Shown here: one piece after another, positions 22,713-48,925 of the stretch
Position numbering within the stretch: position 1 is the first letter of the stretch
Layout of the letters: every line of letters starts with the position of its first letter
Assembly (NCBI GenBank): GCA_947589735.1
Contig: CANQCR010000003.1
Coordinates: forward strand, 37,324 to 101,323
DNA length: 64,000 bases
Direction of reading: 5' to 3'
Source of the DNA: an uncultured Bacilli bacterium
GTDB taxonomy: Bacteria > Bacillota_I > Bacilli_A > RF39 > UBA660
The notes under the pieces: model-generated
What the model saw: the letters and a program-made list of their open reading frames with translations, nothing else
What the model was told of the DNA's origin: nothing
Database searches by the model: none
Translations under genes and position numbers: made by a program

Positions 22713-22714
22713 AG

Positions 22715-25626: not shown

Positions 25627-25925
25627 TATCCCACCACCTTTGGAACTTTTATTTCGGTATCGACGTAGTTATCACAATTTTGAAGTAATTCATCAATGGG
25701 AACACTTTCTTCTTCGACATCTTCTCTTAGTTCATAAACAAAATCATCTAAGCAATGCGTCATCGGTTCAACCTCACCTAACCCATCAATCGCATTCAAA
25801 CGATCAATATCCGCATCAATCTTATCAAACTCATCTAAAACCATCTTGTTTTCTTCTGGTGTTAGACCAATCAATAACTTATCAGCTAAATCATCAACAA
25901 CTTCTTTGGTAAATACTTTTGTCAT
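25626..25925 (-). CDS. gatC: Amidotransferase subunit C
   Basis: 99 aa. The true ATG at 25925 is preceded by AAAGGAGG. The ORF-track start at 25952 is a TTG over-extension. Confidence 0.8.
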   Translation of the reverse strand: MTKVFTKEVVDDLADKLLIGLTPEENKMVLDEFDKIDADIDRLNAIDGLGEVEPMTHCLDDFVYELREDVEEESVPIDELLQNCDNYVDTEIKVPKVVG

Positions 25926-25940
25926 AATATCCTCCTTTAT

Positions 25941-25967
25941 ATGAAAAAACAAGTCCTAGGACTTGTT
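25941..25967 (-). terminator. Intrinsic terminator/attenuator between tRNA-Asn and gatC
   Basis: AACAAGTCC-TA-GGACTTGTT hairpin followed by a T6 run, immediately upstream of the gatC SD. Confidence 0.55.
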
Positions 25968-25977
25968 ATTTACTAAG

Positions 25978-26053
25978 TGGCGCCTGATGTAGGACTCGGA
26001 CCTACGACCTGCCGGTTAACAGCCGGATGCTCTACCGACTGAGCTAATCAGGC
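25978..26053 (-). tRNA. tRNA-Asn (GTT)
   Basis: Hand-folded cloverleaf; anticodon loop CTGTTAA; encoded CCA. Confidence 0.85.
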
Positions 26054-26056
26054 GCA

Positions 26057-26132
26057 TGGCGCTCAATGTAGGACTCGGACCTACGACCTGCCGGTTAACA
26101 GCCGGATGCTCTACCAACTGAGCTAATTGAGC
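26057..26132 (-). tRNA. tRNA-Asn (GTT), second tandem copy with a different acceptor stem
   Basis: Same body as the first copy; acceptor GCTCAAT/ATTGAGC; encoded CCA. Confidence 0.85.
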
Positions 26133-26385
26133 AATTAATAAATTATAGTCCCGATTGGGACGAAATATTCCGCGGTGCCACCCAATTTATCAATATTATT
26201 GATCACTTTATCGATTCTATTAAATCGTGTAATATGATAACGGATTACTTCCGATTAAGCCTACTTCGTTCAGCCTAACAACTAGTGGATGTTATTCATA
26301 ATAAACTTAATCGTTAGCTCACACCATACCTAACTCGCTTTTATCAGTTTTTATTATTACTTCTTCCACGTCAAAACGCTTATGT
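26133..26385 (-). promoter_or_regulatory. T-box riboswitch-like leader, probably Asn-specific
   Basis: Conserved T-box sequence AAATTGGGTGGCACCGCGG at 26170-26188, followed by a GTCCC-AATC-GGGAC hairpin and an A/T-rich tract. Stem I is closed by GATTAAG/CTTAATC and contains candidate AAC specifier codons. Confidence 0.6.
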
Positions 26386-26466: not shown

Positions 26467-28632
26467 TTAATCTTCTTTCTTGGGCATTAATTGATATTGC
26501 TTTCCTCCTTCAGATAAAGTATCTTCATATTCTATAAGATATGGAAGTAAAGCCTTCATATAACCATTTAACTCATCTGATATATGAGGAAAAGGATGAC
26601 TTAAATAATAATCATAAGCCTCTTTGAATTTCCTTTTCTTAAGAAAATGGCGCATCGTCTTTAAATCATCTACGCCTGAAACCTCGATATGCGTAATTTC
26701 TTCAGGTTCTGAGTGATGATGAACATTTTGGGTTTTTAATTGCCATAATAATTTTTTATAAGCTCTTGGATATGGCTTTTTAAAATTATTTTTGGCTTCC
26801 ATCATCCACTCATCACTTTGACAAAGCACAAAAGCCGTCTGATAATCACCATAATATAAAGCGTGAAGAAAGCGTTCGATAAGACTCGCATTTTCTAATT
26901 CATAAGGATTAAAATAAGTTGGCGTAGCGCCATAATTAGATTTCGTCTTTAAAATTAATCTAATAATTCGAAGAAGATTAACGTCATCCGCATCATCATA
27001 ATTTTGGCCATATACTTCTTTAGTTAAACGATCTTTTTCTTGAATTAAAGATGCCACTTCTTCTAACTCTTCTGGTGTAAAAAAGCCTTGCTGATAAAAC
27101 ATATCTTTAATTTTTTGTCTTAACACTTTAAGGCTATCTAGCCGTGGTTTGATATGCTCGTATTCGGTAATCGCTTTAACTAAATCATCTAAAATAAGAG
27201 CATAGATATGAAACTCTTCCGCCTTTTGATGAATAAGAAGATCATATTTCTCACACGCTAAAGCTAATTCATAAGCTTTTTTAAAATCAAGATTTTCAAG
27301 AGCGGTATAGAAGTTTGAAAAAATAGTCCCAGCATTATATTGCATATCAGGGTCAATAACACTAAAATTAGCATTATACTTTTGAACATCCAATAGACGA
27401 ACGATAAGTTTTCTTGCATTATTAAAGACTCTCGTTTGCTTCCTACTAGCATCTTTATACTTATAACATAATTCTAAAGCCTTTTCATAGTCTTTATCAT
27501 AAACAAGTTGTTCTAATGTTTTAATGTCAGAGTCTATATCATCAGCTTTTTTAGATATTACATTATTAGTAACTTCTACTTTAGGTGTTACATCAACAAT
27601 AGGAGCTTTAACCTGGCTTTTTGTTTTTGCATCAAGCCGGACTAGCGTTCCTATTAAAGACGTTACAGCATTAAAATAGTGCCAATCATTTCTTGGAATT
27701 TCAACTAAATCTTTAACTTCAAAGGCCGTAAGATAATCGCCATTTGCTAAGGCCGTATCAAAAAGCTTTTTAGGTTCTAATGGTGGATATGATGCTTTTT
27801 TTAAAGATAGTAATCCTTTTTTAATGGCTTCAGCATCATCAAGTAATTTATACATTACTTGCCACTTAGCTTGATATTTAGGAAAGACATAAACAATTAG
27901 TTTATCCATATTTCTTTTAATAGCGGCGCGGTCATTAAGCGAAATAGAAGCCATTAAGCGCTCATATATCCTACCAAAATTACGTTTACGCCAAACATCA
28001 GCTTGTAAATACTTTTTTTCTTCTTCAAAAGTTAATTGATCTCTTTTATCAGCATACTCTTGATAATAGAAAAGCATTTTCTTATCATAAACCTGTAACG
28101 ATAAATTATGAATATTATGGGTTGTACCCCGAATATGGCCAAATAAAGATAATTCTTCGGTTTTAACATCATGATAATCTCTTATAGCATCTTCAATTGC
28201 ACCCACGATAATCTTTCTTTTATAATTCGTAAATATTGGTAAATAATCACTACTATCCTGATATGATAATTGGTGAAGGAGTTCATCACATTCTATATCC
28301 ATATTAGATAGTGTTTTTACTAAACTAATAATACAAGCCATGGTAAGATCTTCGTTGGTATCTTCCCTTAAAGCAATGGCATCTTTAAAACAAGCAATAG
28401 CTTCAACATACCTTTTACTACTAGCGATTCGAACACCTTTTTCTAGAGTTCGCATCGCTTGATAACCATTTTTAGAAAATTGATAGTGACCCCTTTTAAC
28501 TCTTACAAGAACACCCGTTTCAACTAATTTATGAACTTGGTATTTACTTAAACCACCTTCATATAACACTTTCGTCTCGTAATCTATTTGCGGTAGACGT
28601 TTTAAAGTATTTAAAGATTCTTTTATATCCAT
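26467..28632 (-). CDS. Hypothetical 721-aa protein with an N-terminal wHTH (AbiEi-like RGxY motif) and a helical-repeat body
   Basis: N-terminus GVLVRVKRGHYQF; the rest is predicted all-helical and TPR-like. Confidence 0.55.
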   Translation of the reverse strand: MDIKESLNTLKRLPQIDYETKVLYEGGLSKYQVHKLVETGVLVRVKRGHYQFSKNGYQAMRTLEKGVRIASSKRYVEAIACFKDAIALREDTNEDLTMACIISLVKTLSNMDIECDELLHQLSYQDSSDYLPIFTNYKRKIIVGAIEDAIRDYHDVKTEELSLFGHIRGTTHNIHNLSLQVYDKKMLFYYQEYADKRDQLTFEEEKKYLQADVWRKRNFGRIYERLMASISLNDRAAIKRNMDKLIVYVFPKYQAKWQVMYKLLDDAEAIKKGLLSLKKASYPPLEPKKLFDTALANGDYLTAFEVKDLVEIPRNDWHYFNAVTSLIGTLVRLDAKTKSQVKAPIVDVTPKVEVTNNVISKKADDIDSDIKTLEQLVYDKDYEKALELCYKYKDASRKQTRVFNNARKLIVRLLDVQKYNANFSVIDPDMQYNAGTIFSNFYTALENLDFKKAYELALACEKYDLLIHQKAEEFHIYALILDDLVKAITEYEHIKPRLDSLKVLRQKIKDMFYQQGFFTPEELEEVASLIQEKDRLTKEVYGQNYDDADDVNLLRIIRLILKTKSNYGATPTYFNPYELENASLIERFLHALYYGDYQTAFVLCQSDEWMMEAKNNFKKPYPRAYKKLLWQLKTQNVHHHSEPEEITHIEVSGVDDLKTMRHFLKKRKFKEAYDYYLSHPFPHISDELNGYMKALLPYLIEYEDTLSEGGKQYQLMPKKED

Positions 28633-35006: not shown

Positions 35007-36350
35007 TTAGTCATTTCTTACGAGTTCTTTAAAAGCATTACCCTTTTCTTCAAAATTTTTAAAATACTCATAACTAGAAGCTGCCGGGCTTAAAAGACAT
35101 ATTTTCTTTTTAGCTGTTACTTCTTTAGCTTTCTTAACGGCATCAGTTAGTAGTTCACATTCATAAATATGAGTATCAGGGTTACTGATAAGTTTACCTA
35201 TCTTATACCCCGTTGTTGGCATACAAATTAAATTGCGAACCACACCTGTATTTAAGTAATCGATAAGTTCATCATAATTAATTCCCCTATCCATTCCTCC
35301 AAAGATTAGTGTATCAACACTACCCAATGTTTTAATCGCATTAACTGTCGCATCCGGAATAGTCGCAATCGCATCATTATAATAAATGATATCATCATAC
35401 TCACCAACATATTCAAGGCGATGTGGTAATCCCTTAAAATTATTAATTGTTTTACTAACTATTTTTAAATCTAAATTAAGATAACGACTAATAGCTAGAA
35501 CAAACATAATATTTCTTAGATTATGCTCACCTAACAATTTTCTTGGTGATGCGGCATCATATAAGACTTCACCATTTAAATAAACTTGATTATCCTTAAG
35601 ATAAATAGCGTCTTTTAAATTACTATCACTCATAAAAATGGGATACTTATGCGCTAGATAATTATCATTTATATAACTACATAATGGTTCGATATCACCA
35701 CTATAAATACATACGTCGTCCTTCATTTGGTATTTAAAAATATTTAACTTATTAGCGTGATAATGCTCAATTGTCCCACTATGATCAAGGTGATCTTCAT
35801 AAAGATTGATAATAGCCGCTATTTTAGGTGAGTAGTGAACGAACTCTAATTGTAAGGCTGACATTTCACAAACAACCCAAGTATCTTCGCTAATCTCTTC
35901 TAAATAATCAAAAATAGCTTTACCAATATTACCTAAAAGAAGGGTTTTAAGGCCACAGGATTTTAAGACTTCATAAGTTAAGGTACAAGTCGTACTCTTA
36001 CCCTTAGTAGCCGTTATACCAATAGTGTGATCACGATGATACTTAAGTAACATCTCTAACTCGGATGTAAAATTAATATGACTAGTATCGATATCTTTCG
36101 TAATAACACCAGGACTTTTAAAAACTAAATCATATTCTTCTAAGTTATCTAAATAATTCTCTCCATAAATAATTTCAATATGATCATCTTTTAACTCGGG
36201 ATGACGAATAGTTGGATCGTTTTTATCAATAATGGTAAGGGGCATATCCGTGTAACGACGAATGAAGTTATAGGTCGCCATACCTTCCATCCCCATACCT
36301 AAAAGGGCAATTTTCTTACCCTTTAACTCTTCAATTATTTTATACACCAT
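35007..36350 (-). CDS. Mur ligase, MurD-like (UDP-MurNAc-L-Ala--D-Glu ligase family)
   Basis: GMGMEG Rossmann motif; P-loop GITATKGKSTT; NDAIATIPDAT matching the MurD DSKATN-like motif. It lies outside the dcw cluster context. Confidence 0.6.
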   Translation of the reverse strand: MVYKIIEELKGKKIALLGMGMEGMATYNFIRRYTDMPLTIIDKNDPTIRHPELKDDHIEIIYGENYLDNLEEYDLVFKSPGVITKDIDTSHINFTSELEMLLKYHRDHTIGITATKGKSTTCTLTYEVLKSCGLKTLLLGNIGKAIFDYLEEISEDTWVVCEMSALQLEFVHYSPKIAAIINLYEDHLDHSGTIEHYHANKLNIFKYQMKDDVCIYSGDIEPLCSYINDNYLAHKYPIFMSDSNLKDAIYLKDNQVYLNGEVLYDAASPRKLLGEHNLRNIMFVLAISRYLNLDLKIVSKTINNFKGLPHRLEYVGEYDDIIYYNDAIATIPDATVNAIKTLGSVDTLIFGGMDRGINYDELIDYLNTGVVRNLICMPTTGYKIGKLISNPDTHIYECELLTDAVKKAKEVTAKKKICLLSPAASSYEYFKNFEEKGNAFKELVRND

Positions 36351-37695
36351 GATTCAACAACTCGTTTACACGCTCTAATTCTTGACGAACTAAACCTTCA
36401 AAAGCTTCAGGAACATTGTGTTCCGTGTTAAAGTCATATCGGAAATGGTCATCTAAATCCAAATCATAATGATCTTTATAATATTGTAATAAATATGGTA
36501 AGTTATCTACCCCATCGATAACCGCACTAATAGCGTATCTTACCTCACTAAAAGTTCCCACACATTCAAAAGGTTTAGCTTCATCATATCCTGCTAGTTT
36601 TAACATCGTTGGCAATAAATCTTCTCTTTTATATAAATCTTCACCAAAAATATTAATTATCTCTTGATCAGTTAAGAAAGGATATAACATAATGTAGACA
36701 AACAAACATTTTGGACAGTTACAACACCATTTACAAGGTGTTTCTTTACTACCGACATTACAACTTTTGAAAACTTTATGATACTTATAGTATCTTGAGA
36801 ATAGCATCGTTATCTGTAATTCCGTTAATGGTCGAAGTAAACTAAAGTATTTAATATCTAATTTAAAATATTTAGTGACATAATCATTAAAATCACATTC
36901 AAACTCATAAGTCTTTGAATATTGATGATTGATATTCGTACCAATTATAGTTGGTTCATTCGCACTAGCTTCATTAGATAAAACGATATACTTTTTGCCA
37001 GTTAAATAAGCACATAAATATGAGACAAAAGCAACTAACGCACTAAAAGGTGTATGTCCATTTAAGTATCCTTCTTTATTTAATTCGATAAGACGTCTAT
37101 CAACTGTTCTTTTAATAGCCATAAAATCATCATGACCAGCGACTTTAGCGCATTCAATGCTTGGCTCTTTAGGATTAATCATAAAGCATTTATTATCAAA
37201 TCCATCAAGAATAGTCAAAGTTACAGCGGAATCTTTACCGCCCCCAACCGCGATAAGATTTCCTTTACCTTGATAATCAATTTCATCCACTTTCTCTTTA
37301 TCATGCGAACAAGTGAACTTGACAAAATCTTCTTCAGATACGTCGATATCATTGACATAACGAAACTCTCCTAAGCCATTATAGTATAGTTTTTTAAACC
37401 AAGCTAATTGATTTTTATTTAAATAGCCAGCTTTAATTTCCACATTAGGACTACAAGTACATTTAAAATAACTGATTAATTCAACCATACCGATATTAAA
37501 GATAAGATAATTCAAAAAAGTTTCATCATATTTCGTTACAATATCTTTCTTTTGAATATGAAGGGTTGGTGTGAAAGTAGCTAAATCGGGTATTTCAAAA
37601 TGAAAGGTAGCAATTAAACTTTCCTCCGTATCTTCTATTTCATATTTTTCATATATAATTTTGGGATATTTTTCTCTTAATTCTTCAAATTCCAT
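36340..37695 (-). CDS. PP-loop ATP pyrophosphatase superfamily protein with a Cys cluster (function unknown)
   Basis: GGGKDS PP-loop in mid-protein; CKWCCNCPKC motif; an 11-nt overlap with the Mur ligase gene. Confidence 0.5.
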   Translation of the reverse strand: MEFEELREKYPKIIYEKYEIEDTEESLIATFHFEIPDLATFTPTLHIQKKDIVTKYDETFLNYLIFNIGMVELISYFKCTCSPNVEIKAGYLNKNQLAWFKKLYYNGLGEFRYVNDIDVSEEDFVKFTCSHDKEKVDEIDYQGKGNLIAVGGGKDSAVTLTILDGFDNKCFMINPKEPSIECAKVAGHDDFMAIKRTVDRRLIELNKEGYLNGHTPFSALVAFVSYLCAYLTGKKYIVLSNEASANEPTIIGTNINHQYSKTYEFECDFNDYVTKYFKLDIKYFSLLRPLTELQITMLFSRYYKYHKVFKSCNVGSKETPCKWCCNCPKCLFVYIMLYPFLTDQEIINIFGEDLYKREDLLPTMLKLAGYDEAKPFECVGTFSEVRYAISAVIDGVDNLPYLLQYYKDHYDLDLDDHFRYDFNTEHNVPEAFEGLVRQELERVNELLNHGV

Positions 37696-37759: not shown

Positions 37760-38389
37760 TTAATTATTACTTTTAGTTAACACTATAACCTTTTCTAAGA
37801 TAAAGCCATATTTCGTTAAGGGACTCTCCCCTTCGAAGAATAGAAAATCATCATAATTGATATCTTGTTCTTCTGAAATATTTTTGCCATCAACATTTTT
37901 AATCACTATGCCTTTAACTGAGCCACTACCGTTTTTTAATACATCTAGAGTGTCTTTAGCATTAACTTTAACAACGCCTAAAACTTCATTAAGATCAAAA
38001 GTAAAGTCACTAATATCGCCTTTAAAATTGGCAACATAGACATTAGCTTTAGCGCGGTCACGAAACATCGTTCCATCCGCTTTTTTAAGATCCTTAATAA
38101 AAGGAACAATACCTACTAGAGTAATCTTATTAGGATCAACATCTAAACCGATCTCTTCTTTAATCTCCCTAGCAAAGCCATCATTAAGCGATTCTTCTGC
38201 CTTAACATGTCCTGATGCGGTCGTGTATAACTTTCCTTCATCTTTACGAATTTGAAAATAGATATTGCCTTCTTCATCATATAGCCAACAATGCACTGTA
38301 TTATGCCACAAAGCATCGCGATGAACAACATCCCTAGGAGCTTGTCCTAAATGATTTCCTTCTTCATCATATATATCTAGATATTCCAT
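37760..38389 (-). CDS. NUDIX hydrolase
   Basis: Nudix box GHVKAEESLNDGFAREIKEEIGL. Confidence 0.8.
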   Translation of the reverse strand: MEYLDIYDEEGNHLGQAPRDVVHRDALWHNTVHCWLYDEEGNIYFQIRKDEGKLYTTASGHVKAEESLNDGFAREIKEEIGLDVDPNKITLVGIVPFIKDLKKADGTMFRDRAKANVYVANFKGDISDFTFDLNEVLGVVKVNAKDTLDVLKNGSGSVKGIVIKNVDGKNISEEQDINYDDFLFFEGESPLTKYGFILEKVIVLTKSNN

Positions 38390-38447
38390 TTTATCACCTA
38401 CAATGTCAATATTCTTTATTATCTATAGACATTGTAGCATACTTTTG

Positions 38448-39017
38448 CTATTTTTTTAATAATAAAATCTTCGCTGCCTCATAATTTGGTAAAATTATCT
38501 CTTTACCTTTATCAGATAATTTATTATAACTTCTTTGAAGTTTGTTATAAACGAAATCCGCACCATCATCAATCGACATCTGTTTCTCTACATAGACCAT
38601 TCGAAGTAAAGAAGGAACACTATAAAAATGAGCCATAGCATCAGCATCCGCAACACACACCTCTTCTGGGGTTGTCTTAATTGCTAGAACGCTACCACGA
38701 TGATTTAAAATACATTTTTTTATTAATGCGATATCTTCTTTTGATATTTCATAGGGCTTTAATAATTTTTCCGCCATTTCAGCACCAATGATATGATGAT
38801 CTTTGGTGTATTCCTTATCGGTAACAGAGGCGATATCATGTAGTAAAGCCGCTAAAGCGACAATATCGTGTTGCGCGCCATATTGGTTGCAAATTTCCGT
38901 CGCCACTTTATAGACTAACTCAATGTGATGATCCCAAGCGCCTACGCCATAAGCATTACTCGGTTCCATACATCTTCTTTTAACTTCTAAATATATTTCT
39001 TCAATAATCTTATCCAT
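38448..39017 (-). CDS. HD-domain phosphohydrolase
   Basis: H...HD motifs (LLHDIA). Confidence 0.7.
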   Translation of the reverse strand: MDKIIEEIYLEVKRRCMEPSNAYGVGAWDHHIELVYKVATEICNQYGAQHDIVALAALLHDIASVTDKEYTKDHHIIGAEMAEKLLKPYEISKEDIALIKKCILNHRGSVLAIKTTPEEVCVADADAMAHFYSVPSLLRMVYVEKQMSIDDGADFVYNKLQRSYNKLSDKGKEIILPNYEAAKILLLKK

Positions 39018-39074
39018 TTTTATCCCCCCAAGAAAACCAATATAACTATTCTAACATAATTTTAAGCATAATAA

Positions 39075-39100
39075 AACATGAACTTTAAAGTTCATGTTTC
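39075..39100 (-). terminator. Terminator after tRNA-Glu
   Basis: A 12/13-bp perfect palindrome AAACATGAACTTT/AAAGTTCATGTTT followed by a T-rich run. Confidence 0.55.
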
Positions 39101-39108
39101 TTTTTCAA

Positions 39109-39185
39109 TGGTAGCCTGTACGGGATTCGGACCCGTGTATGTCACCTTGAGAGGGTGATGTGTTAAACCACTTCACCAACAGGCC
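39109..39185 (-). tRNA. tRNA-Glu with anticodon CTC (CUC)
   Basis: 77-nt cloverleaf closely resembling B. subtilis tRNA-Glu, but the anticodon loop is CTCTCAA. CCA is encoded. Confidence 0.7.
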
Positions 39186-39209
39186 AAGTAATGCCTTTAA
39201 GACATTACC

Positions 39210-39238
39210 ATTTTATCATTAATATCATCTTTTGACAA
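39210..39238 (-). promoter_or_regulatory. Putative promoter for tRNA-Glu (TTGTCA-17-TAAAAT)
   Basis: Hexamer spacing is correct; the element lies about 18 nt upstream of the mature tRNA 5' end. Confidence 0.35.
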
Positions 39239-39265
39239 TATTAAATATTATTTTTACACAAAATA

Positions 39266-42200
39266 TTATGATTTCATTGTAAGACATTTAGCTTTTTCTT
39301 TTAAGTCTAACAAACTAGGAGATGTCGTCTGTCTTAATATATCTAGTCCTTTATGAAAAGCTTCTCTATAGATATCAGGTTTCATTTGAAGAGTTGATGC
39401 GACGATATCATCATCATAATCTGCTGGTAAAATTATCTTTAAAGTTACAACTAAAGCTTCTTTTGATGGCATTATTGTACATAGTAAATTATAAATTGTC
39501 GCATTTGCACTACTTTCACGATTATCATTTGCCATCTTCTTTAGTTCTTCATCGCTTTCTTTAAGGCGACGTTTTACTTTTTGTGTTAAGACACGCCACT
39601 TAGCGCGATCAGTCGTTGAAGTTATTGGATGTGGCAATACATCTTTATCATAATCAGTTCCAAATTGGTGATGGAATAGTTCCCTCTCATCAAAAGTTAG
39701 AGTGTCTAAAACTAAAGCTAAACGTTCTTTCGTTGTAGCATATGTTCTAGTAGCTGATGAAGGTGTATGATACTTTAGATATTTTCTAATCTTGGTACTT
39801 ATTTTAGAATATTCTTTACTTTCTTCCCCACTTAAATAACTAATTGCTACAGGATGCGTATAATCAGTTCCATTATGCTTTTGGAAGAAGGCTAATTCAT
39901 CTTTCGATAAAATAGTTAAAGCTTGTTCTAATTCCTCTAAAGTTGTGTGAAAAAGATCAACAATAACAATATCCTTCCTATGTCTAACAATTGGTTTCTT
40001 ATGAAGTTCGCTTTGAAGGTTATTACAAATCAAGCGATATCTTCTTGCTTCTTCGCCAAACAATGGATGTGGAATAATAGGAGCATCAAAATCAGTGCCA
40101 TTACGTTTAATAAACAATTCTTTTTTATCTTCTGGAAGTTTAAGTACTGCATCTTTTAATGATGTTGCATCCGTATCAAAAGTTACTAATAAGTCTTCTT
40201 CTTCGACATTCATACCTTTAATACGACGACCAATCTTTCTTTTTAATTGATTATATTCTTCGCTAGACGCACTATCAACTAATTGTGGTCTTACTGTTGT
40301 AAGGTCATCACCATTATATTTTCTAAATAAAGCTTGTTCTTCTAAAGTTAAAGAAGCTATAACATAACGTAATTTTTCTTCCGTTGTGTCAAATAGTTGA
40401 ACCGGTGAAGTTTCTTTAGGTTTACTACCTTTTTCGATATGATACTTCAACCGATAATGGATTCTGGTATAGACCTTTTTTTCTTCAGCATTAAGAGGAG
40501 CTGGTGTATAAGGCTTATCATAAACAGTTCCATTACGCTTAATAAATAGCTCTTTTTCTTCAGGGGTTAAAACAGTATCTAGTAAATATTGCAATTTATC
40601 AGGCGTTGTTTTATATATATCTAAAACCATCAGTTTAGAAGTCCGTTGATGGGCTTGTTTTTCTTCTTTCTTCATCTTAGAAATAATTGCCCGTAGATGT
40701 TTACTAACTACTTTATAGTCTTCCCTATTTTGACCTAAAAGAGGTCGTGGGGTGATTAAAGAAGAATAACTAAGGCCATTACGTTTGATAAATAAAATAC
40801 GTTCTTCACTTGGTAGCTGATCAATAGCAGCATGAAGTTTTTCATCAGTCGTTTTAAATTTGGCTAAAAGATCTTCTGTTGGTTTCTTTTCTAAACTTTT
40901 TAAACGTTTAGATATTTTAATGCAAATTTTATTATATGTTTCTGATTCCTCAGCCGTAAGTGGTGAGAAAGTAGTTACATTAAAGAAATCATTACCATTA
41001 CGTTTAACAAACAAAGTTCGTTCTTCTGGAGTAAGAGAATCAAAAACGATTTCAAAGTTATCTCTTGTAGTTTTAAAGTGAACTAAGATAGGCTCTGGGA
41101 TATTTCTTCTTATTTTAGCTGCTACTCGATGGTATTGTTTAATATCTTCCCCTTTTGCTCGTTTGCGTGGCACTAAAGTAGTGTAGTCAGTACCATTATA
41201 CTTAATAAACAAATCTCGTTCTTCAGCTGTCAATACCGTTTCAACTAAAATCTTTAAGGTTTCCGGTGAGATATGGAAACGTTCCGCTACACTTAAAAGT
41301 TTAACTTCTTTAGGTGTCTTCGTCGTCCGCTTTTTACCTTTATTTAAATCATTAACAATTCCTTGAACTTTTTTATGAACGACCATATAAGTTTGGGCCT
41401 GACTAAGTGTTAACTTCCGTAACCGGACTGGTTTATCATATTCATAACCATTACGATATGTAAAGATAGTTTGCTCATCATCAGATAAAGTTTCAACGAT
41501 ATCCTTTAGAGTTACAGCATCTGTTTTAAACAAATCGGTTAAACGGTAAAGATCTGTTTGGTTATAACACATTAATCTAATTCGAATTTTTTCCTCTAGC
41601 GCATCATACATAGCTTGTGTTTCTTTATCAAGTTTACACAATTTAGCGGGAGCATCATACGTAAAGGCATTTCGTTTTTGGAATAATGCTAATTCTTCTG
41701 GCGTTAACGTCTCTAAAACACTCTTTAAAGAATAAATGTTAGTTTGAAGCATACTGGTTACTAAATAAATTTCTTGGGTGCGAAAACGTTTGGTCATAAC
41801 GAGACCTGGACGATAATTTTTTATGAGACTAAAGACTTTTGTTTTAACACGGTTCCATTCCTCATCATGAACTTGAGATAAAAGTTGATAATTGACAGGA
41901 GCTTCAAAGTCATTACCGACACGATCATAGAAGACCTCTTGTTCCCAAGGCTCTAAAACGCCAACAACTGTTCTTAAAATATCCGGTGTTGTATCAAAAG
42001 CTACTGATACTGTTGGATGTTTTGTTTTTAAGTGTGCAAAACACGTTTTTAAATACTTAACTTGGGTTGGTGTTAAAAGACTATTTTCGGTATAAATCTT
42101 AACATATCGTTTAACAATCGGAATAATGCTATATAAAACTAAACGACGATCTTGAATTGACAACAATGATTGATCTTCAAAGAAACGCGTAAACTTCGTT

Positions 42201-44674
42201 CTAATACTTTCATCAAGATAAGATAAAACTTTAAAAATAGCCTCACGATCGGCAGTATCACATAGTACTTCCATTGATTCATATAATTTATCTAGTTCTT
42301 CTTGTAATTTTGGGACAATAATTTGATATAACTTTGTCATGCGATAAGGTGATAGCATATTAAACTCAGGACTTTGCAAATAATTGCTACCATATCTTGA
42401 AATTAATAGGTTAAACTCCACCGTACCTAAAGCCTCAACAGCAACATCAACATCATTGATATTTTTATATTTTAATAAAGTCGTCAAAGATAACTGATCA
42501 TTTATTGATACGTTATAAGTACCAGTACTAGCTAAGTTTTCAGCATAAGTTAATATTTTTTCTAAGATTTGGCGATATTGTTTTTCAGGATTTTTACTTA
42601 AAATAGAAAGTATCCTACTATAGTTAAACACATCATCACCATAGGCATCGACAATGCTCTTAACCTCTTCTTCAGATAAATATTTTAATGCTTGATATAT
42701 TTTTTCAGCAAATGATTCATTTTTCTTTTGAGCAACTTTCTTTTTCCGCATTTCTGAACGTAATCCTTTAGGAATAAAACTCCGTAATTTAGGAATAATA
42801 GATTGCGCTATATAATATTCATATGATGGATGAAGAACAACATCAGTTGGTTTTAAAAGACCATTTTTATATTTCTTTCTTAAAATAGTTAAATCATTAT
42901 CGTCTAATTTAAGGAGAATGCTTTTTAGTACCTCTTCATCATCAATACCTAATAAAGCTTTAAGGCCAACATTATTAGCATTGGAAAAATTACGCACTAT
43001 TTGGCGTGACATAGCCCCCGTTGCAAAAATTCTTAATTTAGCTAAAATGGCATCACCATAAGCATCATCAATAATATGGGCACGAGGTTTATCAAAGTTT
43101 TCACCAAACATTCTTTTAAGGGTCTCTCGTTCCTTTACATCTAATAAAGGAATAACATTAAGATATGTATTTCTTTGACAATGAAGATATTTATTTAAGG
43201 TATTATTAAACCTTGGACTATTATCCAATGCGCCTTCTTCATCGCGAGCACTTGGTTTATCAGAGTAGACACCTAATCCACTTTGTCTAGAATAACGTTT
43301 TAACTTCCGCAAAGCTTTAGCTTCAATTTGACGAATACGCTCTCTCGTAACCCCAAATTGTTTACCTACTTCTTCCAAAGTTCTACCTCTACCATCGTCG
43401 ATGCCAAAGCGCAATCTTAAAACCTTGTTCTCCCGTGGCGTCAAGCGATCTAAAAGAGGTTCTAAGGCATCTTTTAAAGATGAACTTATAAAGTCTTCTT
43501 CTAAATTTTCATCATTAGGAATAAAACTTCCAAGTTCACTATCTTCTTCATCACCAATAGGATTTGATAAACTAAGTGGTGAGCCAAGATTAAGAACATT
43601 AACCCAATCCTCAATCTTCTCTTTAGAAACACCCATATATTCAGCTTGCTCTTCAATGGTTGGTTCACGGCCAATTTGTTCTTTTAGAGCATCATAACGC
43701 CGACGATACTTATTTAAAGCTTCGACCATATGAACAGGAATTCTAATCGTATGTGATTGATCAGCAATAGCTCTTGTAATTGACTGTCTTATCCACCAAG
43801 TTGCATAAGTAGAAAATTGATATCCTTTATCCGGATCAAACTTATCAACAGCCTTCAAAAGGCCTAAATTACCTTCCTGAATCAAGTCTAGGAAAAGCAT
43901 TCCTCGGCCGACATATCTTTTAGCAATACTAGGAACAAGTCGTAAATTATGAAGAATAATTTGATCACGCGCGCTGGCATCGCCATCTTTATATTTGTGC
44001 GCTAAAGACGCAACTTCTTCGGGCGATAATAACGTGTGCCTTATGGATTGTAAATAATCTCTAACCGGATCACCTGTAATGCTATATTCTTTTTCTATTT
44101 CTTCAAATGTTTGATATTTCTCATCGGCATCGCTTACATCAATTCCTTTAACTAAGCAATAACTCTCAATTAAAGGATATATATCGCTATCAAATAAAGC
44201 ACTTATTTTTTCCCTTGATGGCTTACCTTTAACACTTATAACACTGGAAATAGCATCATCTAATAAACTAATATTGTTAATTAAATAACTATAATCATCA
44301 GGTGATAAATCATAGCCAACAGCCTGAAAAGCAGACATCATAATATTTAGTGATGCTAAAGCCTGTTTACTATTTGAAAATGACGGTAAATAGTTTTTAG
44401 CAAAAGCAACTAAAAAAGATGTATTATCACTACTAGATAAACGTTCTAAAGCGACCTCTTCATATTTAGAAGAATACACTTGTCTTAACGTTTCTTCAAA
44501 ATTATTTATAGTTAAATTAGGCTTATCCGCCATAACACCTAAAGTCATTTCAAATAATTCTTCAACATTTTCAACATGCATCCAAGCGTAGTCTTCTTCG
44601 ACTTCTTTTCTTACTTTAGCAATATAGCTAAAGACCTTGCTACGATCATGAGCTGATAATTCTTCTATTTGCAT
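39266..44674 (-). CDS. rpoD: Giant (1802-aa) RNA polymerase sigma-70 family factor: a primary-type sigma domain (regions 1.2 to 4) followed by a ~1300-aa C-terminal extension of tandem region-4.1-like repeats
   Basis: Region 2 ([54 protein letters not shown]) and region 4 ([14 protein letters not shown]...[28 protein letters not shown]) are near-consensus. They are followed by at least 11 repeats of F-x-TT..L(T/S)xEE+xLFxKRNGTDY. Confidence 0.85.
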
Positions 44675-44735: not shown

Positions 44736-46073
44736 TTAATTATTTTTTAACTTTGCTAAATTACTTAAAACTTCTTTTGCCTTTTTCTCATTACCCATAT
44801 TCGTAGGATAATAATAGTGATGATTTTTTAACTCTTCTGGCATACACGTCATCTTCGTAACTTTATTTTCAAAATTATGGGCATACTCGTATCCTTCACC
44901 ATAGCCTAAATCACTATCTAATTTTGTTACCGCATTACGTAAATGAAGTGGTACTTTTAAGTGAGCCGTCTTGATTGCATCAGCTTTAGCTTTACCATAA
45001 GCCGTATATAAAGCATTAGACTTGGGTGATAAACTAAGGTAAACAACAGCTTGCGCTAAATTGACATTACATTCTGGCATACCATTAAAGTGAACCGCCT
45101 GATAAGCATTAACTGCCTGGGTTAGGGCATTGATATTAGCAATTCCGATATCCTCTGATGCAAAACGAATAAGACGCCTTGCTACATAAAGGGGGTCTTC
45201 CCCGGCCTCTAACATACGAGCAAGATAATATAAAGCAGCATCGGGATCACTATTACGCATCGATTTATGTAAAGCTGAAATTAAATTATAATGTTCTTCC
45301 CCTTTTTTATCATAAAGAAACGTTTTACTTTGAAGCGTGTGTTTTAAGGTATCAACATCAATTTTCACCTTTCCCCGTTTAGATGGAGTTAAATTGATAA
45401 CATTTTCTAAAGTATTTAAAGCCGTTCTAGCATCACCATTACTAAGATTAACAATCATATTAATGCTTTCATCATCAATGGTAACATTACGATATTCATA
45501 ATTAATTTTTAAGGCTCTCGTCAATATTCCTTTAACTTCTTCTTCGGTTAAACTTTTTAAGACGTAGACTTTTGTTCTAGATAATAAAGCGGAGTTTACT
45601 TCAAAAGAAGGATTTTCCGTTGTCGCCCCAATTAAGATAATATCGCCTTTTTCAACATGTGGTAAAAAAGCGTCTTGTTGGGCTTTATTAAAGCGATGAA
45701 TCTCATCAACAAAAACGATGGTCTTTTGGTTATTACTTTTATTATAGCGAGCTATTTCAATTAATTCTTTAATATCTTTAACGCCACTCGTTACAGCACT
45801 TAATTCATAAAAAGCCGAATGGGTCTGATGCGCAATTATTTTAGCAAGGGTCGTTTTACCAACACCTGGTGGGCCCCATAAAATCATTGATGAAATGTTA
45901 TCCGTTTCAATCATCTTTCTTAAAGGTGATCCTTCACCAACAATTTCTTCCTGACCAAAAAAATCATCCAATGTCATAGGTCTAATTTTATCAGCAAGCG
46001 GTTTATATATTTCTTTTTCGTCATCAAATAAACTTTCCATAATATCACTTTCCCTAAGCATATTATAACACAC
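44736..46073 (-). CDS. rarA: Replication-associated recombination protein A (AAA+ ATPase)
   Basis: Walker [10 protein letters not shown] and the MgsA C-terminal domain. The true start is probably the internal M (MESLFDD). Confidence 0.85.
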
Positions 46074-46158
46074 TATCTCTTAAAATTCTATCAATATTAA
46101 AACAAATGTTCGTTTGTATGAATATCTTTTTTTAATCCACACTATTAAGGGTGAGATA

Positions 46159-47427
46159 ATGCGCTATTTCCTTATTGTATACATCTTTCTTATTTTAATC
46201 ACATATAATATGACGATGAAGACACTAAATAAAGATAATGATGATAAAAAATATACGGCTATTCCCTATGCGAGGAATGAACAAAGTAATAATGATATCA
46301 TTATTACTGATAAAACCTTTGTTCATAGTGCGGAAGATAAAAAGGTGCTTATGAATTATCAAGCTATTTTAAAATATAATGCCAAAACACTTAAAAATGA
46401 TGCAACACTATATAATTTAGATACTATCACTTCCCTTAATAAAAAAGAAATTGAAAAACTTATTTTAAAATATGAATTACCAAAACTTCCTAAATATAAT
46501 GGTAACCAAAAAATAACTAATGATGATTTAAATAAAATTTTAGATAATCGTAATTTAAATAATATTGTTGATATCAACAATGTTGTAAAAGGTATTGTTA
46601 TTAAAAGAACTAATCTGAAATCTTTTCCAACCAAAATACATTTTTTTGATAAACCAGGAATGGATAATTTTGATAATCTTCAAGAATCAGAGTTACACGT
46701 TAACACACCTTTAATTATTACTCATACAAGTAAAGATAACCTATGGTCATATGTTATCACACCAACCTATATAGGCTGGGTTTTAAAAGAAGACATTGCC
46801 TTTGCCACTAGTGATGACTTTAATTATTTTACTGCTCCTGAAATGTTTGCTATTATCATAAAACCAAGTATAGCTATAAATAATACTACTCTTGATATGA
46901 GTGTTAAATTACCACTATTAAAAATTGATAAAAACTACGAACTCGCTCTTCCCATTAAAGGTGATGACGGCTATGTAAAAAAGAAAAAAATTGTTTTAAC
47001 AAAAGACGATGCCCATATTGGCTATTTGGACTATACGAAAGAAAATGTATACACTTTGGCCTTTAAATATTTAAATACACCCTATCGTTGGGGTGGGATG
47101 GATTATGGTGTGGATTGTTCTAGCTATGTTGCTAATATCTACCGAAGTTTTGGCTTTATTTTTCCTAGAAATACGTCAAACCAAAGGCAAAGTCTTCAAA
47201 AAACTATCGATTTAACTAATCTAAGTTCTAAAGAAAAACTAAAGTTGATTGAAGGTAAAGAACCTATCCTTCTTTATCAACCTGGACATGTAATGTTATA
47301 TCTTGGTAAATATAATAAAAAAGATTATATTATTCATGCATCCGGAAGTCACAAAAAAGTTACTTTAAGTATTCTTGATGATTCTGATTACTTAAAAAAG
47401 ATAACTACGGCTATTAACATAAAATAA
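46159..47427 (+). CDS. Secreted NlpC/P60-family peptidoglycan endopeptidase
   Basis: Start re-set to the ATG following AAGGGTGAG (signal peptide MRYFLIVYIF...). C-terminal NlpC/P60 with catalytic Cys (DCSSYV) and His (IIHASG). Confidence 0.75.
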   Translation: MRYFLIVYIFLILITYNMTMKTLNKDNDDKKYTAIPYARNEQSNNDIIITDKTFVHSAEDKKVLMNYQAILKYNAKTLKNDATLYNLDTITSLNKKEIEKLILKYELPKLPKYNGNQKITNDDLNKILDNRNLNNIVDINNVVKGIVIKRTNLKSFPTKIHFFDKPGMDNFDNLQESELHVNTPLIITHTSKDNLWSYVITPTYIGWVLKEDIAFATSDDFNYFTAPEMFAIIIKPSIAINNTTLDMSVKLPLLKIDKNYELALPIKGDDGYVKKKKIVLTKDDAHIGYLDYTKENVYTLAFKYLNTPYRWGGMDYGVDCSSYVANIYRSFGFIFPRNTSNQRQSLQKTIDLTNLSSKEKLKLIEGKEPILLYQPGHVMLYLGKYNKKDYIIHASGSHKKVTLSILDDSDYLKKITTAINIK

Positions 47428-47575: not shown

Positions 47576-48925
47576 TTATTTTATTTCTAAAATTTTAGTA
47601 TCCAAATGATAAGCATATTCTTTAGAAGTATATCCTTCATCGGTTGATACATTGATAGTTATCATAATATCGTTGCCATCTAAATAAGCATAATATCCAA
47701 ATACATCACCAATTGGTTCTTCCTTATAAAGTATTGTTGTTTCTATTTCTTGATTAATAACTTTATTATTATCGTAATCAATAAGTTTTAATTTATTATC
47801 TTCATTAACTACTAATAATTTATCAAAAGCAAAAATCATATCATAACCTTTATCGATAATTTTTTCACCATTACTATTAATTAAGTAATACTTTTTACCA
47901 TCTTTAATAACATAGGAATTATCTGGTCCTAAATAGACATTATCATACTTAATTGGTAGTATTTCTTTACCCGTTTTAAAATCGATAACACCATATTTAT
48001 CATCAAGGCTAGCTACTATTTTTTCATCTTTAACATTATAAGTTCGATAATCCAAATGATCATCTAAAATAAGTCCTAACTGATTATATTTAAACTTTAA
48101 TTTTTCTGTTCCTCTTAAATCAACATAACCATATTTTTTGGTTTTAGCATCCTTTGCAATGAAGCCAAGATAAGTATCTTCATCTTTAACAGGCATTATT
48201 TCAGATAATGGATCAATAACATTTTGTAAAGCCTGATAATTATATAGATATTTTTCATCACCATCATAAATAACAGCTATATTATCTAGGCAAGAATTAT
48301 AATTAGCAATCTTATCTAGACCACATTTATTATGTTCACACTCATAGACACTGATTAACTCTTCCCCATCATAAAAAGATAGTTCTTTTTCTGTGCTGTT
48401 ATACAAAGCTTTACAAGCTAGAGCTTCTTCACTTAATTTACGTCCATAAGTTTCTTCTACTTTATCACCATCGATTGTACAATCAGATAAATAAGCAGAA
48501 CCATCAATGTTGATATAGATATTGTTACAATTAACCTCATGTTTACCATATTGAACAAGATCTCTAATCTCAGCAAAATCATTAACTAAATCATGTGTCT
48601 CTAAATACTTTTCACTAGCATCTTCAACAGCAGCACCATAATCATTAATTATCTCTTGATTATTACGTGTAGGTTTGGTTTCTTCTTTTACATCTTCTTT
48701 CGTTAAATCAAAATAAAGGAAAGCGCCAATGCCACAAGCAATAACTAAAACGATAAAGCATATTAATAAAGTATGGTGTTTTTTAGGCATCAAATCATCT
48801 AATGATGTTGGTCCTAAATCAGATACATCTATTTCTTTAGGTAATTCTTCACCGACTTTAGCGCCACAATTTTCACAAAAAACAGAATCTGGTGGAAGTT
48901 CCTCACCGCATTTTAAACACTTCAT
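47576..48925 (-). CDS. Zinc-ribbon / TM / WG-repeat-like extracellular protein
   Basis: N-terminal CxxC...CxxC ribbon; one TM; repeated ...YG(V/Y)(I/V)D... beta-repeat motifs. Confidence 0.55.
   Translation of the reverse strand: MKCLKCGEELPPDSVFCENCGAKVGEELPKEIDVSDLGPTSLDDLMPKKHHTLLICFIVLVIACGIGAFLYFDLTKEDVKEETKPTRNNQEIINDYGAAVEDASEKYLETHDLVNDFAEIRDLVQYGKHEVNCNNIYINIDGSAYLSDCTIDGDKVEETYGRKLSEEALACKALYNSTEKELSFYDGEELISVYECEHNKCGLDKIANYNSCLDNIAVIYDGDEKYLYNYQALQNVIDPLSEIMPVKDEDTYLGFIAKDAKTKKYGYVDLRGTEKLKFKYNQLGLILDDHLDYRTYNVKDEKIVASLDDKYGVIDFKTGKEILPIKYDNVYLGPDNSYVIKDGKKYYLINSNGEKIIDKGYDMIFAFDKLLVVNEDNKLKLIDYDNNKVINQEIETTILYKEEPIGDVFGYYAYLDGNDIMITINVSTDEGYTSKEYAYHLDTKILEIK

What the first reader, a model, noticed from the sequence alone, without database searches (positions are those of the whole stretch)
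39870..42100. Array of at least 11 tandem ~65-70-aa repeats resembling sigma region 4.1 (L-T-P-E-E-R-x-L-F-x-K-R-N-G-T-D-Y), with ~200-bp DNA periodicity
Repeat cores include [177 protein letters not shown] and [18 protein letters not shown]. Each is preceded by an F-x-TT-x-E-x-L segment. The motif mirrors the true region-4.1 start of this same protein ([18 protein letters not shown]). This suggests repeated internal duplication of the -35-recognition and anti-sigma-binding helix. The repeats are divergent at the DNA level, so they are not CRISPR-like and not recent.
Basis: seen in the sequence. Interest (0 to 1): 0.7.

Follow-up and report, generated by a model that had tools for sequence, protein, structure and literature searches.

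The report
Giant sigma factor with sigma-4 repeats
A primary-type RNA polymerase sigma factor from an uncultured rabbit-gut bacterium carries a 1,330-residue tail made of at least 15 diverged copies of its own promoter-binding domain 4; the architecture is real, under selection, shared by a family of gut Bacilli, and I found no description of it.

Summary
One ORF (39266-44674, minus strand, 1802 aa) encodes a SigA/RpoD-type core (aa 194-468, 61.5% identical to B. subtilis SigA) followed by a long C-terminal extension.

The extension holds 11 clear tandem units of 66-85 aa (mean 76 aa, about 227 bp; aa 882-1714, nt 39533-42031). Four weaker copies lie upstream (aa 505-795). A terminal helix-turn-helix domain follows (aa 1715-1802). 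No tandem repeat is detectable at DNA level.

- Profile-profile comparison with genuine region 4 gives 88-94% probability; reversed controls give under 1%.
- The first HTH helix is replaced by a loop, and the -35-contacting residues are not kept.

A 50%-identical orthologue keeps all 11 units in the same order (10 of 11 are each other's best match). Strain variants differ at 24 synonymous and 9 non-synonymous codons.

About 140 related sigma factors (599-1822 aa, 1-14 repeats, mostly with the terminal domain) occur in uncultured Bacilli and Erysipelotrichaceae assemblies.

Function is untested. My best guess is a tethered upstream-DNA-contacting arm. I found no literature on it.

The parts
39266..44674 (-). 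Whole gene: 1802-aa sigma-70-family protein (stop codon 39266-39268)
   Evidence: ORF list. An identical or 99%-identical protein occurs in independent NCBI, ENA and Logan assemblies. A 50%-identical orthologue has the same architecture.
44096..44674 (-). N-terminal acidic region, aa 1-193 (pI 4.4), upstream of region 1.2
   Evidence: No Pfam hit. 67% identical to the orthologue. Charge.
43271..44095 (-). Genuine sigma core, aa 194-468: regions 1.2, 2, 3 and 4 of a group-1 (SigA/RpoD) type
   Evidence: Pfam Sigma70_r2, r3 and r4 above cut-off. NCBIfam RpoD models are the best hits. 61.5% identity to B. subtilis SigA 7ckq_F, with the 4.2 recognition helix identical.
43283..43489 (-). True region 4 (aa 396-464), including [14 protein letters not shown], the presumed parent of the repeats
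   Evidence: Region-4 HMM i-E 9e-28. The repeat HMMs also touch aa 402-426 weakly, i-E 0.04 and 0.001.
43085..43162 (-). Weak sigma-4-like copy A (aa 505-530, [18 protein letters not shown])
   Evidence: HMM from other family proteins, i-E 8e-6.
42782..42937 (-). Weak sigma-4-like copy B (aa 580-631)
   Evidence: i-E 2e-7.
42551..42706 (-). Weak sigma-4-like copy C (aa 657-708)
   Evidence: i-E 5e-8; i-E 0.0065 with the window-only HMM.
42290..42454 (-). Weak sigma-4-like copy D (aa 741-795)
   Evidence: i-E 3e-8.
41783..42031 (-). Repeat unit 1 (aa 882-964; core [17 protein letters not shown])
41564..41782 (-). Repeat unit 2 (aa 965-1037; [17 protein letters not shown])
41309..41563 (-). Repeat unit 3 (aa 1038-1122; [17 protein letters not shown])
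41111..41308 (-). Repeat unit 4 (aa 1123-1188; [17 protein letters not shown])
40892..41110 (-). Repeat unit 5 (aa 1189-1261; [17 protein letters not shown]); this is the unit modelled
40646..40891 (-). Repeat unit 6 (aa 1262-1343; [17 protein letters not shown])
   Evidence: Weak Pfam Sigma70_r4_2 stretch at aa 1278-1303.
40427..40645 (-). Repeat unit 7 (aa 1344-1416; [17 protein letters not shown])
40214..40426 (-). Repeat unit 8 (aa 1417-1487; [17 protein letters not shown])
39986..40213 (-). Repeat unit 9 (aa 1488-1563; [17 protein letters not shown])
   Evidence: modelled
39776..39985 (-). Repeat unit 10 (aa 1564-1633; [17 protein letters not shown])
   Evidence: modelled
39533..39775 (-). 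Repeat unit 11 (aa 1634-1714; [17 protein letters not shown])
   Evidence: modelled
39269..39532 (-). Terminal domain (aa 1715-1802): sigma-4-like four-helix module that keeps a helix-turn-helix
   Evidence: AF2 helices at model residues 250-261, 268-274, 279-295 and 299-313, block pLDDT mostly 78-91 (56 for the last residues). hhalign against the terminal region-4 copies of 28 relatives: 59%, P 9e-5, 61 columns in register. A terminal domain is detected in 124 of 142 family members.

Best explanation
What it is (shown). The gene encodes a SigA/RpoD-type sigma factor of an uncultured rabbit-gut Bacilli bacterium. Its C-terminus is extended by about 1,330 residues. The extension is an ancient tandem array of at least 15 diverged copies of sigma domain 4, ending in one further sigma-4-like domain that still has a helix-turn-helix. 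Each copy has a short helix carrying the 'F-x-T-T' cap, helix 1, helix 2 (L-T-x-E-E-x-x-L-F-x-K-R-N-G, equivalent to region 4.1), a 14-residue Pro-containing loop where the first HTH helix should be, and a long basic helix 3 equivalent to the recognition helix. Basic linkers join the copies like beads on a string.

How it most likely works (inferred, not shown). Sigma-4 sits on the beta-flap at the -35 element, so the extension leaves the holoenzyme at its upstream face. I propose that it acts as a tethered arm for upstream DNA. The terminal HTH domain would be the main DNA anchor. The degenerate, net-basic units would serve as spacer and low-specificity contacts. This would add a built-in alpha-CTD/UP-element-like or activator-like contact to the housekeeping holoenzyme. 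The variable copy number in relatives (1-14) would set the reach of the arm.
For: Identity:
- Sigma core.
- Repeats.
- Homology to region 4.
- Fold.
- Beads on a string: pTM 0.42 with per-domain pLDDT of 85-93 and dips in the linkers.
- Terminal HTH domain.

Selection:
- The same 11 units occur in the same order in a 50%-identical orthologue; 10 of 11 are each other's best match.
- Two strains differ at 24 synonymous and 9 non-synonymous codons in the extension, a rough dN/dS of about 0.1 by my own back-of-envelope estimate.
- Helix 2 and the preceding turn are the most conserved parts.

Family: 142 SigA-like proteins of 599-1822 aa carry 1-14 repeats. 124 of them have the terminal domain.

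For the DNA-arm idea only:
- The extension has pI 9.0 and net charge +23. Positive charge is concentrated in helix 3 and the linkers in 10 of 11 units.
- The terminal domain keeps the HTH.
- The position of sigma-4 in the holoenzyme comes from established structures, for example those listed.
Against: - No experiment and no DNA-binding prediction supports the arm model.
- The units lack the first HTH helix and the -35-contact residues.
- Several units are neutral or acidic: units 1, 2, 9 and 10.
- The most conserved surface is the region-4.1 equivalent, which in real sigma-4 contacts protein (beta-flap, anti-sigmas) rather than DNA (established knowledge).
- I could not check whether the genome has a second, ordinary sigA. 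'Housekeeping' therefore rests on sequence similarity alone.
- The terminal-domain homology is only moderately supported (59%). It was not detected in the window protein by the terminal-domain HMM at 1e-3.
Confidence: 0.4

Rival explanations
1. Protein-interaction scaffold or decoy. The sigma-4-like units keep the region-4.1 surface. They would bind proteins that normally dock on sigma-4: the beta-flap tip of further RNA polymerase cores, anti-sigma-like or activator-like factors, or each other. The effect would be to cluster polymerases or buffer regulators rather than to touch DNA.
For: - The best-conserved segment of the unit is the turn plus helix 2 (L-T-x-E-E-x-x-L-F-x-K-R-N-G). Paralogue identity there is 44-50%, against 20% for helix 3.
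- The HTH is degenerate.
- Multivalency: 15 or more units.
Against: - The conserved residues may be purely structural, since the same positions are conserved in all sigma-4 domains.
- No candidate partner gene is conserved next to the sigma gene in the three different genomic contexts examined.
- The net basic charge has no obvious protein target.
Confidence: 0.25
2. The protein is not the housekeeping sigma. It would be a specialised SigA paralogue, comparable to group-2 sigmas, and the extension would regulate its own activity (autoinhibition or sensing), as the C-terminal extensions of some ECF sigma factors do.
For: - The gene is not in a dnaG-sigA operon. It sits between rarA and tRNA-Glu, HD and NUDIX genes.
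- ECF-type short sigmas with the same repeats exist: 18 proteins.
- ECF41 sigmas carry a fused regulatory C-terminal domain (PMC3426412, listed).
Against: - The core is 61.5% identical to B. subtilis SigA, with an identical 4.2 recognition helix and region 1.2 present.
- The core is 86% conserved between orthologues.
- Firmicutes generally lack group-2 sigmas (my own knowledge).
- The gene lies among housekeeping genes in four contexts.
Confidence: 0.2
3. Neutral baggage. The array would be a tolerated run-away domain amplification at the C-terminus with no function of its own.
For: - Copy number varies from 1 to 14 across relatives.
- Units are only about 27% identical to each other.
Against: - The 11 units are kept in the same order in an orthologue at 50% identity; 10 of 11 are each other's best match.
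- There is a synonymous excess between strains: 24 against 9.
- Models are confident and well folded.
- There are no frameshifts or stops over 4 kb in a genome with 30% G+C.
Confidence: 0.1
4. The resemblance to region 4 is convergent. The unit would be a generic three-helix bundle unrelated to sigma factors.
For: - Individual window units do not reach the Pfam gathering score: Sigma70_r4_2 gives 22.3 bits summed against a 25.7 cut-off.
Against: - hhalign gives 88-94% against under 1% for reversed controls.
- Repeats in relatives are hit directly by the window's own region 4 with phmmer, some over the full length of region 4.
- The repeats sit in the same polypeptide as a genuine region 4.
Confidence: 0.05

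Closest known systems
Sigma-70 family domain 4 (sigma-4; Pfam Sigma70_r4 PF04545 and Sigma70_r4_2 PF08281)
   Different: The first helix of the HTH is replaced by a G-x-D-Y-x-x-P loop. The -35-contact residues are not kept. An extra N-terminal 'F-x-T-T' cap is present. There are 15 or more tandem copies instead of one.
Group-1 sigma factors (B. subtilis SigA, E. coli RpoD)
   Same: Regions 1.2, 2, 3 and 4 are all present. Identity to SigA is 61.5%, and the 4.2 helix is identical.
   Different: SigA is 371 aa and ends right after region 4. This protein continues for another 1,334 aa and has a roughly 100-aa longer N-terminus. NCBIfam RpoD equivalog scores fall below cut-off: 373 against 572.
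ECF sigma factors with fused C-terminal regulatory extensions (for example ECF41; PMC3426412, listed)
   Same: A sigma factor with an extra domain fused after sigma-4. Some family members found here are ECF-like short sigmas with the same repeats.
   Different: As far as I recall, those extensions are single non-sigma domains (from memory, not tested here). Here the extension is made of sigma-4 copies, and the window protein is a group-1 type with region 3.
MzaA, sigma factor of the MZA anti-phage system (NCBIfam NF041931)
   Same: An unusually long sigma-70-family protein. The sigma core aligns, at 308 bits.
   Different: The score is far below the 800-bit cut-off. In the MzaA model the sigma core is at the C-terminus (profile positions 469-723 of 726), so the extra length is N-terminal. 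No defence genes are nearby.
Stand-alone sigma-4-like proteins and LuxR/GerE-type HTH domains (UPF0122/YlxM 1xsv; FixJ, DevR and DesR C-terminal domains)
   Different: They rank below nearly all the sigma-4 hits. They are single-copy domains with an intact HTH.
Alpha-subunit C-terminal domain with the UP element (functional analogy only, from established knowledge)
   Same: A flexibly tethered module at the upstream face of RNA polymerase that contacts DNA upstream of -35.
   Different: The fold and the subunit are unrelated. The analogy is a hypothesis and was not tested.

Membership tests
Sigma-70 family, group 1 (SigA/RpoD): whole protein | Regions 2, 3 and 4 above Pfam gathering scores | tested here: met
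   Sigma70_r2 77.3 bits (cut-off 24), r3 48.1 (25.3), r4 69.8 (24.1).
Sigma-70 family, group 1 (SigA/RpoD): whole protein | Region 1.2 present, and close similarity to primary sigmas including the 2.4 and 4.2 recognition segments | tested here: met
   Sigma70_r1_2 matches at aa 202-232, but at 17.9 bits against a 22 cut-off, so slightly below. Identity to B. subtilis SigA is 61.5%, and the segment [26 protein letters not shown] is identical.
Sigma-70 family, group 1 (SigA/RpoD): whole protein | NCBIfam RpoD equivalog cut-off | tested here: not met
   The best model, NF006666, scores 372.6 bits against a 572 cut-off. Only the core aligns, aa 194-467.
Sigma-70 family, group 1 (SigA/RpoD): whole protein | It is the essential, only primary sigma of the genome | not testable with these tools
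   Only a 64-kb window and flanks of 10 kb or less were available. There is no second sigma in the window.
Sigma domain 4: each repeat unit | Significant sequence-profile similarity to region 4 | tested here: met
   hhalign gives 88% (P 3e-6, 57 columns) and 94% (P 2e-7); reversed controls give 0.1-0.4%. The top PDB profile hits are SigA region 4, E 0.04-0.4.
Sigma domain 4: each repeat unit | Pfam Sigma70_r4 or Sigma70_r4_2 gathering score | tested here: not met
   For the window protein, r4_2 gives 22.3 bits summed against 25.7, and only 1 of 11 single units hits, at E 0.0056. In relatives the summed repeats do pass, for example P0012 with r4_2 at 77 bits.
Sigma domain 4: each repeat unit | The sigma-4 fold | tested here: met
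Sigma domain 4: each repeat unit | An intact helix-turn-helix with -35-contacting residues (R-E-R-I-R-Q type in group 1) | tested here: not met
   DSSP shows a 14-residue coil between helix 2 and the last helix in all 4 modelled units. The aligned positions read E-S-E-T-Y-N in unit 5 and are variable across units.
ECF sigma factors with C-terminal extension | A two-domain sigma (sigma-2 plus sigma-4 only, without regions 1.2 and 3) | tested here: not met
   Regions 3 and 1.2 are present.
MzaA (MZA defence-associated sigma) | NCBIfam NF041931 cut-off of 800 bits | tested here: not met
   308 bits, over the core only.
DNA-level tandem repeat or CRISPR-like array | Repeated DNA units detectable at nucleotide level | tested here: not met
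   Tandem Repeats Finder reports only four trivial repeats of 19-24 bp in 38000-44000.

The most novel reading that the evidence does not exclude
The housekeeping sigma factor of a whole clade of uncultured gut Bacilli has turned copies of its own domain 4 into a multivalent, RNAP-tethered module with up to 15 or more units and a second HTH head. This module would change how the holoenzyme finds or holds promoters. It could contact extended upstream DNA, provide a second -35-like specificity, or bridge several polymerases. Any of these would be a mode of promoter recognition not described for any sigma factor.
Probability: 0.25. Interest if true: 0.85.

Novelty: new variant of a known kind. 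Interest (0 to 1): 0.65.

Why it matters
Textbook primary sigma factors end a few residues after region 4, and their architecture is among the most conserved in bacteria. A primary-type sigma that is five times longer than SigA because domain 4 has been copied 15 or more times, and kept under purifying selection, would surprise transcription specialists.

It raises several testable questions:
- What does a sigma-4 fold do once freed from -35 recognition?
- Can one sigma carry two DNA-reading heads?
- How does promoter escape, which requires sigma-4 to leave the beta-flap, cope with a 150-kDa appendage?

The graded series of relatives, with 1 to 14 repeats, offers a natural experiment. It also shows that 'sigma-70 family RNA polymerase sigma factor' annotations in gut MAGs hide an uncharacterised domain family.

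Tried and rejected
- Self-BLASTP of the extension returned only the identity hit and was uninformative.
- The MAFFT alignment of overlapping three-unit windows (A3) aligned identical overlaps out of register. I discarded it.
- The search for homologous proteins with a 68-repeat profile (A5) returned nothing, probably because of the word index. That search was wasted.
- jackhmmer with the terminal 88 aa against the roughly 150 proteins collected by then found only the protein itself and its orthologue.
- hhalign of the tail against genuine RpoD region 4 gave only 3%. The tail is linked to sigma-4 only through the relatives' terminal copies and the model.
- The genuine region-4 HMM does not hit the window's repeats at i-E 0.01 or better. 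Only profile-profile and structural comparison do.
- Foldseek with the 315-residue multi-domain model found no significant match: best E 0.26, although sigma factors dominate the list.
- tblastn of seven units against 50,697 phage genomes found no match, so nothing points to a phage origin.
- Pfam scans of repeat-rich relatives without a detectable sigma core found no informative fused domain.
- The afdb50 library was unavailable.
- Five literature searches found nothing on sigma factors with region-4 repeat extensions, nor on PF28538.
- The promoter and terminator scan around the gene did not exceed the shuffled expectation.
- CRISPR-like or recent DNA repeat: rejected.
Full report
**1. The observation**

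The region lies inside a single uninterrupted ORF on the minus strand, 39266-44674, encoding 1802 aa. The window has 29.8% G+C.

They start at aa 907, 990, 1063, 1148, 1214, 1287, 1369, 1442, 1513, 1589 and 1659.

I cut the sequence 25 residues before each core. This gives units of 83, 73, 85, 66, 73, 82, 73, 71, 76, 70 and 81 aa, a mean of 75.7 aa or about 227 bp. They align without difficulty. The consensus is '...F.TT.e.L..v...Lt.eE..[11 protein letters not shown].pv.p..L..e....Y..v..ki...l'.

Tandem Repeats Finder sees nothing at DNA level.

The eleven units occupy nt 39533-42031, so the stated start of 39870 omits unit 11 and part of unit 10.

**2. Significance of the repeat**

An HMM built from the window's 11 units finds 11 units in a different protein, P0002. 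P0002 is 50% identical in the extension. The domain E-values are 4e-17 to 1e-25.

An HMM built only from repeats of other family members finds the 11 units again, with i-E 1e-8 to 5e-17. It also finds four weaker copies at aa 505-530, 580-631, 657-708 and 741-795. It touches the protein's genuine region 4 as well, at aa 403-426 with i-E 0.001.

One caveat applies. Those other proteins were themselves retrieved with a profile that included the window's units.

**3. The host protein**

Residues 194-468 are a complete SigA/RpoD-type core.
- Pfam Sigma70_r2, r3 and r4 are all well above cut-off, and r1_2 falls just below.
- NCBIfam RpoD models are the best hits, although below the equivalog cut-offs because only the core aligns.
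- Against PDB sequences the best match is B. subtilis SigA (7ckq_F, E 5e-92). Identity is 61.5% over 265 aligned positions, and the 4.2 recognition helix is identical.

The N-terminal 193 residues are acidic (pI 4.4). The extension is basic, with pI 9.0 and net charge +23.

**4. Is the unit sigma region 4?**

Four independent lines say yes.

(a) A profile of the 11 units searched against all PDB sequences puts S. aureus and B. subtilis SigA region 4 in the first four places, at E 0.04-0.4. The alignment pairs '..L..vl.tLt.eE..lf.krnG.d' with '[26 protein letters not shown]'.

(b) hhalign was run against a profile of 53 genuine region-4 segments taken from family members.
- The 22-unit profile gives 88% probability, P 3e-6, over 57 columns. 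That covers the whole domain, including the equivalent of the recognition helix.
- A 344-instance profile gives 94%, P 2e-7.
- Reversed-template controls give 0.1-0.4%.

(d) In relatives the repeats are closer to region 4. phmmer with the window's own sigma core hits its region-4 part many times in their extensions. Pfam Sigma70_r4 and r4_2 accumulate whole-protein scores above their cut-offs there, for example P0012 with r4 at 145 bits and r4_2 at 77 bits.

**5. How the unit differs from real sigma-4**

In all four modelled units the segment between helix 2 and the last helix is a coil of about 14 residues, G-x-D-Y-x-x-P-...-L. This is where the first HTH helix should be.

In the hhalign alignment, the positions facing the -35 element in group-1 sigmas (T-R-E-R-I-R-Q) read E-S-E-T-Y-N in unit 5. 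They vary among units.

Conservation is highest in the turn plus helix 2, the equivalent of region 4.1. Paralogue identity there is 44-50%. It is lowest in the last helix, at 20%.

The copies are therefore sigma-4-derived, but there is no evidence that they recognise a -35-like sequence.

**6. Array architecture and the tail**

I modelled units 9-11 plus the tail, 315 aa in total. Mean pLDDT is 81.6, with dips in the linkers, and pTM is only 0.42. The domains are confident and their mutual arrangement is not, which suggests beads on a string.

The last 88 residues form four helices with a proper helix-turn-helix. The predicted helices roughly match the segments [19 protein letters not shown] and [17 protein letters not shown]; I placed them by eye.

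By sequence, the tail aligns in register with the terminal region-4 copies of 28 relatives. hhalign gives 59%, P 9e-5. It does not align significantly with RpoD region 4 itself, at 3%. This part is moderately supported.

**7. Age and selection**

The orthologue P0002 (1813 aa) comes from MAG GCA_947632495.1 and has the same gene neighbours. It has the same 11 units in the same order. Ten of the eleven are each other's best match.

Orthologous units are 29-69% identical, with a mean of 48%. Paralogous units are 17-36% identical, with a mean of 27%.

Between the window and a 99%-identical strain (L004), the extension differs at 33 codons. Of these, 24 are synonymous and 9 non-synonymous, a rough dN/dS of about 0.1 by my own back-of-envelope estimate.

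The array is therefore old, stable and under purifying selection.

**8. The family**

An exhaustive HMMER search of 1.84 billion representatives with the 22-unit profile found 154 proteins at E 1e-3 or better. Many of them have 2-15 matched stretches.

Of the 154 proteins collected at that point (150 from this search, plus the protein, its strain variants and its orthologue), about a third carry a SigA-like core at about aa 200-465. Eighteen have an ECF-like short sigma. The rest show no detectable sigma core and may be fragments.

A word-indexed search with the extension of relative P0012 added about 100 more.

In total, 142 SigA-like proteins of 599-1822 aa carry 1-14 detectable repeats. Repeat number scales with length. 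124 of them end in the terminal sigma-4-like domain. The window protein is at the extreme end of this series.

The only names given by the sources are 'sigma-70 family RNA polymerase sigma factor' and 'hypothetical protein'. The organisms are Bacilli, Erysipelotrichaceae or Firmicutes MAGs.

The window's own organism is 'uncultured Bacilli bacterium isolate Lapin-002__bin68', apparently a rabbit-gut MAG.

Gene neighbourhoods are ordinary housekeeping ones and differ between clades. None of them is a dnaG-sigA operon.

**9. Mechanism**

Nothing here tests function. What follows is inference.

In every holoenzyme structure, sigma-4 sits on the beta-flap tip at the -35 element. A C-terminal extension must therefore emerge at the upstream face, next to upstream DNA and the RNA exit channel.

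The extension is net basic. Positive charge is concentrated in the last helix and the linkers in 10 of 11 units. It ends in a domain that keeps an HTH. On this basis I favour a tethered arm that contacts upstream DNA, at about 0.35-0.4.

The main rival, at about 0.25, is a protein scaffold or decoy that uses the conserved region-4.1-like face.

Whether the protein is the only primary sigma of the genome could not be checked. Neutral expansion and convergent resemblance are unlikely, for the reasons given in sections 4 and 7.

**10. Comparison with what is known**

The protein passes the domain tests for a sigma-70-family, group-1-like factor. It fails the RpoD equivalog cut-offs because of its architecture.

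The units pass the profile and fold tests for sigma-4. They fail the Pfam per-domain threshold and the HTH and -35-residue test.

The protein is not an ECF sigma, because it has regions 1.2 and 3. It is not MzaA, scoring 308 against 800 bits.

Five full-text searches found no description of sigma factors with tandem region-4 extensions.

The idea that sigma factors themselves arose by HTH-domain duplication has been proposed. I am recalling Burton & Burton 2014 from memory and did not check it.

I rate this a new variant of a known kind: a known domain and a known protein family, in an undescribed and extreme architecture.

**11. Verdict**

Interest is 0.65.

Noticed in passing
window 21333-26383 (-): A T-box leader (26153-26383, 121.8 bits) is followed directly by two tRNA-Asn(GTT) genes (26057-26132 and 25978-26053), then gatA (24172-25626), gatB (22715-24172) and asnS (21333-22712). 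This looks like a T-box-controlled operon that combines tRNA-Asn genes, the tRNA-dependent amidotransferase and AsnRS. tRNA genes placed between a T-box and its regulated ORFs are unusual.
   Followed up: partly
window 39073-39185 (-): A tRNA-Glu(CTC) gene (39109-39185) lies 80 bp downstream of the sigma gene's stop codon. A terminator-like hairpin follows at 39073-39100. The sigma gene may be co-transcribed with rarA (44736-46073, a 61-bp gap) and with the tRNA.
   Followed up: partly
window 44096-44674 (-), aa 1-193: The N-terminus before region 1.2 is about 100 aa longer than in B. subtilis SigA. It is acidic (pI 4.4), has no Pfam hit and is 67% conserved in the orthologue. Most SigA-like family members also start their sigma core near residue 200.
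   Followed up: no
relatives P0031, P0045, P0069, P0078, P0080, P0087 and others: Eighteen ECF-like short sigma factors (sigma-2 at about aa 15-100, sigma-4 at about aa 115-210) carry the same sigma-4-like repeats after their sigma-4. The repeat module is therefore not restricted to SigA-type cores.
   Followed up: partly
relatives P0012 and P0017: The precomputed Pfam list includes PF28538.1, an accession absent from the local Pfam copy and from the literature library. It might be a recent Pfam entry that covers this repeat.
   Followed up: partly
window 36340-37695 and 35007-36350 (-); L001 12805-15496: A MurL-type epimerase (MurL_N and MurL_epimerase_C in the orthologous locus) sits next to a MurD-like ligase, two genes downstream of the sigma gene. 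The pairing is conserved in both MAGs.
   Followed up: no
window 26467-28632, 46114-47427, 47576-48925, 56543-58471: Four ORFs of 437-721 aa have no NCBIfam match at 1e-10. In the orthologous loci the 449-aa one corresponds to a Zn-ribbon/WG-repeat protein. The 46114-47427 (+) ORF looks like the SH3_6/NlpC-P60 protein of locus L002, judged from its position only.
   Followed up: no
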